Source of the DNA: Eledone cirrhosa
Lineage: Eukaryota
Reading direction: 5' to 3'
Assembly (NCBI GenBank): GCA_964016885.1
Contig: OZ024763.1
Coordinates: 20,584,001 to 20,648,000, forward strand
DNA: 64,000 nucleotides
Shown here: in pieces, positions 12,612 through 55,686 of the stretch
How the letters are laid out: every line of letters begins with the position of its first letter
How positions within the stretch are numbered: the stretch's first letter is position 1
Made by a program: the position numbers and the translations under genes
Notes under the pieces: model-generated
Databases searched by the model: none
Seen by the model: the letters and a program-made list of their open reading frames with translations, nothing else
What the model was told of the DNA's origin: nothing

Positions 12612-12806
12612 TCAAAAGTTGTCTTTCAAAGAATTAATCCTGGCACAGATTTTCAATGCTGGTCCTAGTTTCATGTTCATGGCAGTCATCAAGTGATCCT
12701 CTTTCAGAAGAAGCAGAGCTTGCCCATCAATTTCTTGAGAGCGAAATTCTTCAGCGTACGCTGTACAGCCTGGCATTGATTTAATGAAATCAAAGACTTT
12801 CTGAAC
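12612..12806 (-). CDS. ph: polyhomeotic/PHC last coding exon, SAM domain
   Basis: Acceptor TTCTTCAG, then VQKVFDFIKSMPGCTAYAEEFRSQEIDGQALLLLKEDHLMTAMNMKLGPALKICARINSLKDNF-TGA, a typical Ph SAM sequence; phase 0. Confidence 0.95.
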   Translation of the reverse strand, partial: VQKVFDFIKSMPGCTAYAEEFRSQEIDGQALLLLKEDHLMTAMNMKLGPALKICARINSLKDNF

Positions 12807-33474: not shown

Positions 33475-34244
33475 AATATATATCTATATCTATATATATA
33501 TCTATATCTATATATCTATATATATATATATATCTATATATATATCTATATATATATATATATATATCTATATATCTATATATACATATATATATATATC
33601 TATATCTATATATATATATATCTATATATCTATATATATATATATATATATATATATCTATATATATATATATATATATATATATCTATATATATATATC
33701 TATATTTATATCTATATCTATATATATATATATCTATATATATATCTATATACATATATATATATCTATATATATATATATATCTATATTTATATATATA
33801 TATATATTTATACACATATATATATATATATGTAGAGGACCTAAAGAATCACAAACAGAAGGAAAAAAAATAGGAGAGATCAAAAGACAGGACAAGAGTT
33901 GAACAATACCCTATCTCTAACATCATCACGTCTTGTATTGTTTGTCAGAGTGTTTCTTATTCTTTGGAAGGGCTGGAAAAAAGTTAAATATTTTGGTAAA
34001 TACAAGAGTTTCTCTCATTTCATCATGGAAGATTCGAAAGGAAATCGTAAATCGAACGACACGGTCACACATTATGCTATACAAAATTTCACCGTCACTC
34101 TGTCTGTTTCTCTTTCTCTACATACATACATACATATATATATACATATAAATATGTATATATATACATATAAATATGTATATATATACATATATGTATA
34201 TATATGTATATATATACATATATGTATATATATATATATATACA

Positions 34245-37925: not shown

Positions 37926-37967
37926 CTGAGCACATCCTTTTGTCTACATTCGGAGGGGCAAGCAGAG
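37926..37967 (-). CDS. ph: Putative 42-nt symmetric microexon of polyhomeotic (TLLAPPNVDKRMCS)
   Basis: TGCTTCAG acceptor, CAG|GTAGG donor, phase 1-1, open frame; no homology support. Confidence 0.45.
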
Positions 37968-39560: not shown

Positions 39561-40044
39561 CTCTCAAACGCATCCAACTCCGTACCAGCATGGAATGGAG
39601 GAATATTAAGTGATGATGATGATAGTGTCGGTAATGGTGATGATGATAATGATGATGATAGTGGTGATAATAGTGGCAATAATGGTGATAGTGATGATGA
39701 TGGTGATAGTAATGAAGATGGCGATAGTGATGATAATGAAGATGGCGATAGTGATGATGATGATGGTGACGATGGTGGTGGTGGTGGTGGTGACAATATG
39801 TTGATGGTGATGATGATAATGATAATAATGATGGTGATAATGATAATGATGATAATGATGCTGAAACAAATAAATAGATCACTTAACTAAAACAAAAAAA
39901 AAAACACCAAAACAACAACAACAAAACAAACCCCAACAAAAAAATCTAATAAATCTATTATCAAGAAATAAGATGCTTTTTCAACCGAAAAATTCTCCAG
40001 GAAATTTGGTAACTTGGTAGTTTGGTAGATGAGAAAACTCTTAC

Positions 40045-40206
40045 TTTTGGGCTTGGATGGGGTGGCAAGCCTTCTCGTACAGCCAACGTTATAGCGCTTG
40101 GCACATACCATAGAACAAAAGCGTTTGGAACTGCAAAACTTAGACTCCAGGTCGACTTTGCCACAGAATTCGCACTTCAACGTCGAATCTGTTTCTGGTT
40201 GGGGGT
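40045..40206 (-). CDS. ph: polyhomeotic FCS zinc-finger exon
   Basis: TTTTCCAG|AC...AAAA|GTAAGA; DPQPETDSTLKCEFCGKVDLESKFCSSKRFCSMVCAKRYNVGCTRRLATPSKPK; 162 nt, phase 1-1. Confidence 0.92.
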
Positions 40207-40310
40207 CTGGAAAACCAAAAGGAACCGGTAATAAGGGAGCACACAACAAAAGATAAAAAAAGAGAAACAAAATAAGAAGAAAGAACCATACCAGACACAA
40301 AGAGAAAGAA

Positions 40311-42911: not shown

Positions 42912-43597
42912 TGTATATTTATATATAATATGTATTATTTGATATTTAATATACTATTATATCTCTACCACCCACCACCACCACCTTAGGCCTCAGTGCC
43001 CTCTGGACCTTCTCCATACCCCCTGGGGGAGCGGTAACGCCCACTTTGAGAACTTTTGATGTAGATAATGATTTGTTCTCCTTACTGAGTAGGTCAATAT
43101 TGCTCTTGGGTCCCAAATAATAGGGGGTAGTGGAATAACTGAGGTAGTGAGGTGGGGCAAATCAGTAATATTTCTAGGTTGTCTCCGTTGATATTTTAAA
43201 AAACCAGACTTATACGTTTAGTTTACATATTGAGACCCCCACCCCCAATTCAACTCATCCTATTTATTATATAACATATGGGATTTCTAGTAATGTACCT
43301 TTTTTTTGGTCATGGACCTTCTCAATGCACCCCGGGGTCTCAATATGTAAACTAATTTGAGAACGTCTGATGTACAACAACATAGATAGCAGAACCAGCA
43401 GAACTAACAACAACAGCAACAACAGAAGAAGAAGCAGCAATGAATATTGAAAAAGTTGTAGCTTCTACAAGGAATATAATGATCAACCAATGAAACACAA
43501 ATAAACCCACAAAAATAGAGACAACCAGAACTAGCAACAACAACAACAACAACAGCAGCAGCAGAAGTAATAACTATTGAAGTAGTAGTAGCTTCCA

Positions 43598-44509
43598 TAA
43601 CCCTTTAGCATTTAAACCAGCCATATCTGGCCAGAATTCTCTCACCACTTTCTGTTCAAACCAGCTGTAACTGGCCACTCATACTAATGTTAAGGTATTG
43701 TTCTTAAAATAAATAATATCAAAATTTCATAAATTCGATATTATGTGAAATAAAGCCTTTACCTTGAAAATACAATAGTATATATAGAGTAATGTAAATA
43801 CTAGAGGGTTAAACCGGCCATATCAAGCCAGAATTCTCTCACCTCTTTCTGTTCAAACTGGCTGTAACTAGTCACTTATACTTATGTTAAGGTATTATTC
43901 TCAACCTAAATAACATCAAAATCTCGTAGATTTGATATTATGTGAGATAAAGCCATTACTATGAAAATACAATAGTATATATAGAGTAATGTAAATGTTG
44001 TGAGATATTATGTGAGATAAAGCCTTTACTGTGAAAATACAATAGTATATATAGAGTAATGTAAATGTTATGTGAGATATTATGTGAGATAAAGCCATTA
44101 CTATGAAAATACAATAGTATATATAGAGTAATGTAAATGTTGTGAGATATTATGTGAGATAAAGCCTTTACTGTGAAAATACAATAGTATATATAGAGTA
44201 ATGTAAATGTTATGCGAGATATTATGTGAGGTAAAGTCTTTACTGTGAAAATACAATAGTATATATAGAGTAATGTAAATGTTATGTGAGATATTATGTG
44301 AGGTAAAGTCTTTACTGTGAAAATACAATAGTATATATAGAGTAATGTAAATGATATGTGAGATAGTATGTGAGGTAAAGCCTTTACTGTGAAAATACAA
44401 TAGTATATATAGAGTAATGTAAATGTTATGTGAGATATTATGTGAGGTAAAGTCTTTACTGTGAAAATACAATAGTATATATAGAGTAATGTAAATAGTA
44501 AAGGGTTAA
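43598..44509. mobile_element. TTAA-MITE dimer with an internal ~62-bp tandem expansion
   Basis: TTATGTGAGATAAAGCCTTTACTGTGAAAATACAATAGTATATATAGAGTAATGTAAATGTTATGTGAGATA repeated ~9 times before the right TIR. Confidence 0.8.
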
Positions 44510-44667
44510 AGAATATAATGGTCAGCCTTTAAAATACATAAACCCATCGATATAAAGACAACCATAACTAACAACAACAACAACAACAAAAATAGCAGCA
44601 GAAGTAATAACTATTGAAGCAGTAGAAGTAGTACTAGTTTCTATAAGGAATATGATAGTCGGCCAAG

Positions 44668-45260
44668 TGACATGTTCTCCACCTCCAGCTTAGTCACTTT
44701 GGCCACAAAGCCCGGTACTGTGGCCTGCTATGCAGAGAAAATACTGGGGACTGTCCAGCCATGAGAAAACCCTTACTTTGGGCTTGGATGGGGTGACAAG
44801 CCTTCTCGTACAGCCAACGTTATAGCAATTGGCACATACTATAGAACACAGGCATTTAGAACTGCAAAACTTAGACTCCAGGTCAAATTTGCTACAGAAT
44901 TCGCGGCCCACTATGCAGAGGAAAGGAAGACCAACAAAAAGAGGGTATTGTCTAGCCGCTTCCTCTTCGCACTGGTCGCTGTCGAGACCTCAGGCTTAAT
45001 TGGACCCCATACAGTCGAGCTCCTCTGCAATATCGGAATGTCAGCAGCCCATCCGAGGAAGGAGCCCCACGAGGAGGGGTGGCTGTTACAGAGGGTGTCG
45101 CTGGCCACTGTCCGCGGGAATGCTTTTGTGGCGATATCCATGGAAATGCTTTTGCGATGATGTCTGCGGGAATGGTTTGCAGGCATGTCCACGGGAATGC
45201 TTTTGCGGTGCTGTCCGCGGGGCTCAGCCCCCATTACCACAGCTCCCTAGGTACAAGGCA
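44668..45260 (+). mobile_element. C-terminal fragment of a CRE-like (RLE-type) non-LTR retrotransposon, split by a captured exon
   Basis: DMFSTSSLVTLATKPGTVACYAE (44668-44740) and AAHYAEERKTNK...FLFALVAVETSG...LLCNIG...WLLQRVSLATVRGNA (44903-45160); family assignment is by motif recall. Confidence 0.65.
44777..44910 (-). pseudogene. Diverged duplicate of the polyhomeotic FCS exon (pseudo-exon)
   Basis: REFCSKFDLESKFCSSKCLCSIVCANCYNVGCTRRLVTPSKPK|GTAAGG; keeps the donor and ~15 nt of intron; first Cys lost, RFCS changed to CLCS. Confidence 0.9.
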
Positions 45261-46267
45261 CAGAGCCCATCACCCACCCCTTCCCAACTCTCCCCTTGCC
45301 TTTCCCATGTTTTTTTTTTATATTTTCTTATTTTACATTCTATTCTTTCTTCATCTATTTTTAACTTTTTTCTATGAAATTGTCATAAATAGATATTGTA
45401 ACAATGATAATGATCAAAATAAAGTATATGTACAAACATAGATAAACCCACAGAAATAACAAGTCAGAATTAACAACAACTACAACAACAACAGCAGCAG
45501 AAGAAGAAGCAATGACTATTGAAGAAATAGTAGCTCCTACGAGGAATATAACGATCAGCCAACAAAATATACATAAATTCACAGAAATAAAGACAACCAG
45601 AAGCCAACGAACCGGGTCTGTTTGTATATATTCAAAGCACAACACGTAACATAACACATTACATTTACATTAGATAGGGTTCCATTTAGAAATCTTTCAT
45701 TATGTCGGGTCACTCTTGAGTGCTACTGGCAGCATGTAACCCAGTACAACCTGTCGCATGGTCGGGTCGTCAGCGACTAAACCGGCAACCCCACCAAGCT
45801 TACTTGGTGAGGAGGGTGATTTTGGATACCCTGCAGGACAAAAAACAAAACCTAACAAAGGGCAGAAGAACTCGTTAACGGTCATCTAAAAAAAAAAAAT
45901 CCTGCTAAATCAATGAGTGGCAGTAGTTCCAGCTGCACACATCAAAAGACTGGTGTAGTGGTTCTGAGAACAATGCGGCTTTGCAGATGATTAATGCAAA
46001 TGGACAATGGAAAGCCGCTCCCACTCGAGTTAGAAGAGAACTATTGACCTTCAGGAGAAGCAGCGACCCCTCATTGTATTCAGCAACCAAAACAAATATG
46101 AAGTACACCAAATCCACAGCTCCTAGGGGCGGCCCTGGTCTTTCTTATTTGCGAGTGTAAACTTGGCCAGATTAGATTAGATTAGATTATTTCAAATCTT
46201 AGAAATGAAGACATCTGCAGATGATGGCAGAGCTAAGCAAGGACTCATTGGTGATGTACGTCTAAGG

Positions 46268-52481: not shown

Positions 52482-52650
52482 CATCAGCCTCTCCATCTCT
52501 TGTCTCTGTGTCATCAGCCATGGGAACGTCAGGGTCATGACCTGACCCATTCGTTTCTTCTTGTTCAGATTCTTTCTCCAAATTAGTGGTGCTTGCATTG
52601 CTGCTGGACTTTGAAGGAATGTATTCTGTCAGCAATGATGACCTTTGAAC
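52482..52650 (-). CDS. ph: polyhomeotic exon (VQRSSLL..., acidic)
   Basis: TTGTTCAG|GTT...GATG|GTAAGG; phase 0-1; completes the conserved EPFPVxRSSLL HD1 motif. Confidence 0.9.
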
Positions 52651-54657: not shown

Positions 54658-55686
54658 AGGGAACGGTTCAGGTCCTTCGTGGATGATGAAACCCTCAATA
54701 ACATGAGTTAGAATATGAGGTTTCACTATAGCCTTTTGTTTCTCTACGACCACGGTATTATCCAACATGGTCGACACAGGATGCTGTGGTTTGCCTGAAG
54801 AAACGTCCATCGACTCAACCTGCCTGTTATCTTGAGTGGGTGTCGGTGGTTGGGCCGCATCGGCCTGTGCCCTTTTCTCTTGTTTCTGCTCGGATGCCGT
54901 CTGCTTTGAAGTGGGTTCAGCGAGGGTCTTCTTCTCCGAAGCGCTCTCCATCATGGCTATCGTTTTACGCCCCGTTTCAACCTCCGAGTCCGACTGACTC
55001 TTCGGTAGACTGATAGTCCCGTTTGTCTGGCTGGTTGGGGTAGTTGGTTTAGAGAGGCTTGTGGGCATCGTGGGTTTCGTTTGAGAGCCTGTTGACGAAG
55101 GGTTGCTCTTTTTCGTACGCACTTTTGTAGTTGTCTTTGGTGTGATGGTCGGAATATTGAGTTTCGGACCAGAGTTTGGTTGCATAGATATATTTGTCGG
55201 GTGTATTTTGGCAGTGTTTGAACCTTTGGAAGTCGAAGGTAAAATCGTTGAAAGTCCTTTATTGCCTTGGGTTGTGGTTTTTGCCGGTAATCCAACAGTT
55301 TTAGCCTGTAGGCCCGTTGTCATATCAATAAGTTTGGCAGTTTTCAACGGGTTAACAGGCTGCATCCCAGTAGGGGTGGCAGTGGCTGCAGCAACCATGG
55401 ATGGCTGTTGTTGAAGTGGCGTAGCAGTGCGGATATAGAGGGGCTGGCCAGCCAAGATGGTTGGTGATTGAGTCGTAAGTAACGGCTGGTGAGCTGAGAG
55501 AGGGATGCCCTGTTGCAAACTGGCCATGGCTTGCAGCATGGCTGGGTTCGTGAGCATCGGTTGAGATGCGAAGATCTGACCGCCGCTTGTCACAAGTTGA
55601 GATTGACTGTTCATGCGGAGAGGCGATTGGGAATTGATTAGTTGAGGTTGAGAGACAACGGTGTGACATGCTGATTGATTCTTTGA
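54658..55686 (-). CDS. ph: polyhomeotic large exon (Q/T/S-rich region + HD1 domain)
   Basis: TTTTCCAG|TCA...; 1029 nt open; ends KQKAIVKPHILTHVIEGFIIHEGPEPFP|GTGAGT (Ph HD1 motif); phase 0-0. Confidence 0.93.

What the first reader, a model, noticed from the sequence alone, without database searches (positions are those of the whole stretch)
44668..45260. FCS zinc-finger exon captured inside a CRE-like retroelement, forming a candidate poison exon of its own gene
Seen: a diverged copy of the FCS exon, including its GTAAG donor and ~15 nt of intron, lies 4.7 kb upstream of the real exon in the same orientation. It interrupts a plus-strand CRE-like ORF and is flanked by an ~18-bp imperfect direct repeat (GTGGCCTGCTATGCAGAG / GCGGCCCACTATGCAGAG). 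The antisense retroelement supplies an acceptor (CTTCCTTTCCTCTGCATAG) in the correct phase 1. The copy lacks one A before the donor (134 nt), so inclusion shifts the frame and hits TGA nine codons into the true FCS exon, giving NMD or an HD1-only protein without SAM. Orientation and retained intron argue for a DNA or antisense template rather than spliced mRNA (inference).
Basis: partly seen in the sequence, partly recalled or inferred. Interest (0 to 1): 0.75.

Follow-up and report, generated by a model that had tools for sequence, protein, structure and literature searches.

The report
Polycomb exon fragment trapped in retrotransposon
A dead jumping-gene copy in an intron of an octopus-relative's polyhomeotic gene contains a 144-base duplicate of the end of that gene's own zinc-finger exon, likely picked up by a one-off copying detour when the element inserted; splicing it in would create an early stop, but it is decaying like junk and is most likely skipped rather than a control switch.

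Summary
The structure is real. Window 44761-44904 is a 91%-identical, genome-unique copy of the last 128 nt of the polyhomeotic FCS exon plus 16 nt of intron. It sits inside a 5'-truncated RT/restriction-like-endonuclease LINE with thousands of relatives (CRE clade untested). The '18-bp direct repeat' is really a 55-nt duplication of LINE sequence (one arm lost 14 nt), matching the loop and 3' arm of a predicted hairpin. Both LINE arms and the captured piece have similar non-CpG divergence (7-8%), so capture probably happened at insertion, by a template switch out and back. None of 84 other family loci shows this. The poison-exon arithmetic holds (134 nt, frameshift, TGA after nine codons), but function is unsupported: all 8 amino-acid changes fall in the copy, its acceptor is weak, and 27 other intronic AG-GT pairs in this gene score as well on a crude model. 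Splicing itself could not be tested. Verdict: a templated insertion of a known kind, probably a dead pseudoexon. The scan noted a similar exon-end capture in a CR1 element in another genome. Side lead: all eight annotated Octopus and Argonauta Ph proteins seen lack this FCS exon.

The parts
44668..44760 (+). 5' piece of the 5'-truncated RLE-type LINE; 44720-44760 is the left copy of the 55-nt duplication, with a 14-nt deletion after 44737
   Evidence: non-CpG divergence 6 of 78
44761..44904 (-). Captured Ph segment: last 128 nt of the FCS exon (44904-44777, one A deleted) plus 16 nt of the downstream intron (44776-44761); 2-nt microhomology with the LINE at 44903-44904, 0-1 nt at the other junction
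   Evidence: non-CpG divergence 9 of 132
44777..44910 (-). Candidate 134-nt pseudoexon: AG acceptor and pyrimidine tract from the antisense LINE, host-derived GTAAG donor; frameshifting; inclusion untested
44903..45395 (+). 3' piece of the LINE: right copy of the duplication (44903-44957), end of the RLE domain, pyrimidine-rich 3' UTR; 3' end approximate, no target-site duplication found
   Evidence: (non-CpG 15 of 183 over 44903-45131)
45110..45213 (+). Four diverged head-to-tail copies of a 26-nt LINE segment that is single in the family
40045..40206 (-). Real FCS zinc-finger exon of polyhomeotic, 162 nt, phase 1-1; source of the capture (40173-40029)
52482..52650 (-). Upstream Ph exon (169 nt, ends in phase 1)
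37926..37967 (-). Downstream Ph exon (42 nt)
54658..55686 (-). Large Ph exon ending in the HD1 motif (name recalled)
12615..12806 (-). Last coding exon of Ph (SAM domain)

Best explanation
A 5'-truncated RLE-type LINE in a polyhomeotic intron holds a unique 144-nt copy of the host's FCS exon end between two copies of a 55-nt LINE segment, likely made by one template switch out to the host gene and back during integration, and now most likely a dead, skipped pseudoexon. Shown: anatomy, uniqueness, equal age of the three parts, neutral decay of the copy. Inferred: the growing strand left the LINE template at the edge of a predicted hairpin, copied the locus 4.7 kb away (either the DNA, or nascent unspliced Ph pre-mRNA during plus-strand synthesis; I put these at about 60:40), and re-annealed 55 nt back with 2 nt of microhomology. 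Predicted: any inclusion is low-level splicing noise that would give a premature stop.
For: Insert sits inside collinear LINE sequence with a 55-nt overlap. Non-CpG divergence: left arm 6 of 78, right part 15 of 183 from the family majority, insert 9 of 132 from the real exon; Fisher p = 0.84; arm against arm 6 of 35, i.e. about twice that, so the arms decayed independently from near-majority sequence. Both arms share a base found in only 3 of 26 other scorable copies, pointing to one source molecule. The same copy has a second go-back-and-recopy feature, a 26-nt unit four times. The duplicated segment is the loop plus 3' arm of the best-folding of 18 windows of the majority sequence (z -2.4 RNA, -2.7 DNA). 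Decay: 9 codons differ, 8 non-synonymous, on about 96 non-synonymous and 27 synonymous sites; at all 8 the outgroup protein P0046 agrees with the real exon. 28 AG-GT pairs of 50-250 nt in 65,288 nt of introns, the copy included, score at least as well at both sites. Templated insertions in LINEs are documented (bioRxiv 2024.08.27.596794 passages; PMC11702581 section 7).
Against: Equal divergence cannot separate capture at integration from repair soon after (wide sampling error on 78-183 sites). Published L1 templated insertions usually come from within 15 bp of the site, not 4.7 kb. Hairpin support is modest: four natural, decayed sequences of this segment fold no better than shuffles (z -0.5 to +0.2) and 72-78% of positions lie within 3 nt of some predicted helix edge. 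The donor scores above 8 of 11 real donors, the acceptor has a 39-nt AG-free zone, and 91% of the exon body is retained, so inclusion is plausible. Neutral amino-acid decay is also what a frameshifting poison exon would show. The splice model is trained on this gene's 12 acceptors and 10-11 donors only.
Confidence: 0.68

Rival explanations
1. The LINE inserted intact; a later replication-fork or double-strand-break template switch (microhomology-mediated, DNA-templated patch) copied 144 nt from the nearby exon and duplicated 55 nt of the LINE. The product is equally dead.
For: Same orientation, short distance, 0-2 nt microhomology, no poly(A), and a hairpin that ssDNA could also form. Many family copies show 10-40-nt deletions with short junction overlaps, so such repair is common here. 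Class 2 templated sequence insertions are described (PMC5110952 abstract and section 5).
Against: The arms show independent decay to full depth and the insert is as old as the element, which confines the event to a short time after insertion; a second recopying anomaly lies in the same copy.
Confidence: 0.22
2. The copy has been co-opted as a regulated poison exon that tunes Ph dosage through nonsense-mediated decay or yields a SAM-less protein.
For: Strong donor, usable acceptor, frameshift with a stop 473 nt upstream of the last junction; exon-body signals inherited from a real exon.
Against: No sign of constraint: substitution level equals that of the dead LINE around it; acceptor weaker than 10 of 12 real ones and C-rich where this gene's tracts are T-rich; 27 other equally scoring pairs; lineage-young, whereas regulatory poison exons are typically conserved (own knowledge).
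Confidence: 0.05
3. A separate retrotransposition event pasted a cDNA of an antisense RNA into a pre-existing LINE copy and made an 18-bp target-site duplication.
For: An 18-nt repeat is visible at 44720-44737 and 44903-44920.
Against: The repeat extends to 55 nt once the 14-nt deletion is allowed, and the left junction lies 23 nt further on; no poly(A) or other tail; insert as old as the host element.
Confidence: 0.03

Closest known systems
Templated insertions within L1 integrations (bioRxiv 2024.08.27.596794, passages read; PMC11702581, passages and section 7 read)
   Same: Short (<250 bp) non-LINE genomic segment copied into a LINE insertion during integration, duplicating local DNA.
   Different: Here the element is an RLE-type LINE in a mollusc, the insert is internal (LINE on both sides with a 55-nt overlap), and the template lies 4.7 kb away rather than typically within 15 bp.
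mRNA/LINE-1 chimeras in antisense orientation, attributed to twin priming (PMC13174262, passages read)
   Same: Host transcript sequence antisense to the LINE, no splice junction at the fusion.
   Different: Those lie 5' of the LINE inside one pair of TSDs; here LINE sequence resumes on both sides, intron is retained, the source is the host gene itself, and no TSD was found.
5' extra nucleotides of ZfL2 LINEs derived from flanking DNA (PMC4245944, abstract and passages read)
   Same: Local genomic sequence templated into a truncated LINE junction.
   Different: Described as several nucleotides at the 5' junction; here 144 nt, internal.
LTR-mediated retrocopies flanked by discontinuous retrotransposon (PMC5131818, abstract read)
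   Same: Gene fragment between two retrotransposon pieces, formed by template switches at microsimilarities.
   Different: LTR elements and mRNA captured before integration elsewhere; here a non-LTR element, unspliced template, single local copy that did not spread.
Exonization of antisense retroelements (Alu paradigm; PMC3629564 seen in search listing only) and NMD-coupled poison exons (recalled)
   Same: Antisense element supplies a pyrimidine tract and AG; inclusion would shift frame.
   Different: Donor and exon body come from the host's own exon; no inclusion, regulation or conservation shown.

Membership tests
RLE-type non-LTR retrotransposon | Reverse transcriptase upstream in the same family | tested here: met
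   Loci found by DNA similarity to a family member align over the RT region of P0170 in 5 of 30 (L075, L084, L089, L098, L099); protein relatives carry PF00078; best PDB hits of P0170 are R2 proteins.
RLE-type non-LTR retrotransposon | C-terminal CCHC knuckle followed by PD...D...K endonuclease | tested here: met
   Longer copies translate to CRCG...HPLSC, RH..LND, RPDG, WD, K..KY; motif meaning recalled; no Pfam model hit for the window fragment.
RLE-type non-LTR retrotransposon | Shared 3' ends with variable 5' truncation | tested here: met
RLE-type non-LTR retrotransposon | Target-site duplication around this copy | tested here: inconclusive
   Longest shared word 7 nt, inside the 3' UTR; old AT-rich site.
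CRE clade | RT groups with CRE1/SLACS/Cnl1-type references in a tree | not testable with these tools
   No reference sequences obtainable; resemblance rests on recalled motifs. ESM Atlas gave only RT and PHD labels.
LINE templated insertion | Non-LINE segment duplicated from an intact genomic donor, embedded in the insertion | tested here: met
LINE templated insertion | Arose during integration | tested here: inconclusive
   Ages indistinguishable but no pre-capture allele or sister species available.
Poison (NMD-coupled) exon | Inclusion creates a premature stop upstream of the last junction | tested here: met
   In silico only.
Poison (NMD-coupled) exon | Included in transcripts, stabilised by NMD inhibition | not testable with these tools
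   No RNA data could be laid.
Poison (NMD-coupled) exon | Sequence constraint above neutral flanks | tested here: not met
   Non-CpG 9 of 132 against 21 of 261 in the LINE, p = 0.84; low power, single lineage.

The most novel reading that the evidence does not exclude
An RLE LINE reverse transcriptase copied the nascent, unspliced pre-mRNA of the very gene it was inserting into, and in one step built a new exon (element-derived acceptor, host-derived body and donor) that now acts as an NMD-coupled brake on Polycomb Ph in this octopod, at an FCS exon that other octopods skip or have lost.
Probability: 0.03. Interest if true: 0.7.

Novelty: new member of a known kind. Interest (0 to 1): 0.22.

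Why it matters
As it stands it is a well-preserved fossil of a messy LINE integration: it shows that RLE-type elements, like L1, can pick up local host sequence, here an exon-intron boundary of the host gene several kb away, and so assemble a spliceable unit in one event. It would matter more if RNA showed regulated inclusion, as a recent birth of a poison exon in a PRC1 subunit. The side lead, that Octopus and Argonauta Ph models lack the FCS finger that this genome keeps under selection, is an independent and testable question on Polycomb evolution.

Tried and rejected
RNA test: no RNA holder listed; this is no evidence either way. Other individuals: of three RAD-seq runs laid at 96% likeness, one gave a single read of at least 99% identity from about 44898 onward (too little of the insert to bridge), one gave a 37-nt partial read that may come from the real exon, one gave none; presence in other individuals is therefore not established. 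Pattern search for two exact 17-mers 40-400 nt apart found 0 matches, uninformative at this divergence. Survey of 85 family loci (5 duplicates dropped from 90): only the window copy has an internal foreign insert; the sample is biased to contiguous matches and 1.5-kb flanks. Family 5' ends near the hairpin: 12 of 29 fall in a 50-nt stretch over its loop and 3' arm, but truncation is as frequent just upstream, so no hotspot is claimed. One search was mis-aimed and hit an unrelated repeat. The RT-bearing loci are a sister family (about 66% DNA identity) and were not used for membership. No cephalopod FCS-containing full-length Ph turned up (the latter unnamed and clustered at 50%). The 18-bp TSD reading was rejected. 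Literature searches for Ph FCS splicing and for Ph in octopus found nothing relevant; searches for CRE in octopus or metazoans gave no usable definition. Supplements of the bioRxiv preprint (its Fig. 4d on template distance) were not seen.

Full report
Context. The window lies in a 3.0-Gb animal genome and holds most of a minus-strand polyhomeotic gene; its large exon is 91% identical to Octopus sinensis Ph, so the organism is an octopod. Twelve coding exons were mapped from 80398 (beyond the window) to 12806 and give an 817-aa protein ending in SAM. The FCS exon is 40206-40045, 162 nt, phase 1 at both ends, with Pfam zf-FCS_1.

Observation. 44761-44904 matches 40029-40173 at 91% with one deleted A. 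It covers the last 128 nt of the exon and 16 nt of intron. Only these two places match in the genome. Contigs from three short-read runs of one sample bridge both junctions without a difference; that sample may be the assembly's own, so this excludes an assembly error but says nothing on population frequency.

The host element. The flanks belong to a repeat with 3,989 first-look candidates. Copies share 3' ends and are variably 5'-truncated. Longer copies encode a CCHC knuckle and a PD...D...K endonuclease region (motif meaning recalled), relatives carry RT, 5 of 30 long family loci reach into the RT region, and the best solved relatives are R2 proteins. It is an RLE-type LINE. CRE fits motifs I recall, but no tree with references could be built.

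Junction anatomy. Against the family majority, the left piece runs 44668-44760 and the right piece restarts 55 nt earlier in element coordinates at 44903; the left copy of that 55-nt segment has a 14-nt deletion, which is why only 18 nt looked repeated. The right junction has 2 nt of microhomology, the left 0-1 nt. No poly(A) and no TSD of the whole element were found. The same copy carries a 26-nt segment four times. In the majority sequence the duplicated segment is the loop and 3' arm of the best-folding of 18 windows (z -2.4 RNA, -2.7 DNA); I looked for this after an earlier scan note on a CR1 case. Support is modest: natural copies fold no better than shuffles and most positions lie near some helix edge.

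Timing. Non-CpG divergence is 6 of 78 (left), 15 of 183 (right) and 9 of 132 (insert against real exon), Fisher p = 0.84; arm against arm is 6 of 35. Both arms share a base seen in 3 of 26 other scorable copies, and this base creates the AG. So the duplication and capture date from about the time of insertion and most simply come from one source molecule. None of 84 other family loci has an internal foreign insert (biased sample), and the chimera did not spread.

Mechanism. Inferred: a template switch out to the host locus and back. Spliced mRNA is excluded by the retained intron. A repair or replication switch shortly after insertion gives the same product and cannot be excluded. Templated insertions in L1 (22 cases, usually under 250 bp and within 15 bp), local templated additions, antisense chimeras by twin priming and DSB patches are the known kinds.

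Poison exon? In silico, 44910-44777 inclusion gives TGA after nine FCS-exon codons, 640 aa, 473 nt before the last junction; use in place of the real exon also shifts frame. Whether this organism applies the junction rule for NMD is untested. For inclusion: the donor scores above 8 of 11 real donors, the AG-free zone is 39 nt, and the exon body is mostly kept. Against a role: the acceptor scores below 10 of 12 real acceptors, and 28 AG-GT pairs in 65,288 nt of Ph introns, the copy included, score at least as well on a crude gene-trained model. The copy changes at the rate of the dead LINE around it. Nine codons differ from the real exon, eight non-synonymously, and the outgroup P0046 sides with the real exon at all eight: the real exon stayed under purifying selection while the copy lost the first Cys and the Phe of the FCS motif. 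This rules out a functional second finger; it does not rule out a poison exon, which needs no coding constraint. Splicing could not be tested.

Novelty. No paper on this locus or on Ph FCS splicing appeared; searches returned only the general classes above. The scan has noted a similar exon-end capture in a CR1 and a stowaway exon in a shark gene in other genomes (unchecked notes). I file this as a new member of a known kind, unusual in being internal, distant from its template and self-derived, with low odds of function.

Side lead. All eight annotated Ph proteins of O. sinensis, O. vulgaris, O. bimaculoides and Argonauta hians returned join the upstream exon directly to the 42-nt exon and lack the FCS finger; Patella has isoforms with and without it. 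Exon loss and skipping could not be told apart.

Noticed in passing
window 40045-40206; proteins P0001, P0002, P0038-P0042, P0045: All eight annotated Octopus and Argonauta Ph proteins seen lack the FCS exon that is intact and constrained here; Patella has isoforms with and without it. Either a skipped cassette or a lineage-specific loss of a conserved PRC1 zinc finger.
   Followed up: partly
window 40020-40230; protein P0046: An unnamed genomic ORF reads through the exon's flanks with near-identical translation on both sides, implying conserved intronic sequence at both splice sites, as is typical of regulated cassette exons (inference).
   Followed up: partly
window 40100-40140: The real exon reads KFCSSKRFCSMVC where three outgroup proteins read KFRRSKRFCSMAC; these changes are shared with the copy, so they predate the capture.
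   Followed up: partly
window 45110-45213: Four diverged tandem copies of a 26-nt LINE segment bounded by a short direct repeat; not seen in the other family loci surveyed.
   Followed up: partly
loci L061-L070 (G000): A sister RLE-type LINE family, about 66% identical in DNA, has many long RT-bearing copies, some with open frames of 500-950 codons; the octopus LINE paper read (PMC9115989 passages) mentions only RTE and Dong.
   Followed up: partly
proteins P0188, P0195, P0199, P0170: Relatives of this LINE protein carry N-terminal PHD fingers or ubiquitin C-terminal hydrolase domains.
   Followed up: no
window 43370-43610, 44500-44667, 45430-45602: The LINE sits amid degenerate copies of an AAC-rich repeat of about 140 nt.
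   Followed up: no
window 33910-33972: A 63-nt Ph exon with the weakest donor of the gene is present in some Octopus isoforms and absent in others: a second cassette exon.
   Followed up: no
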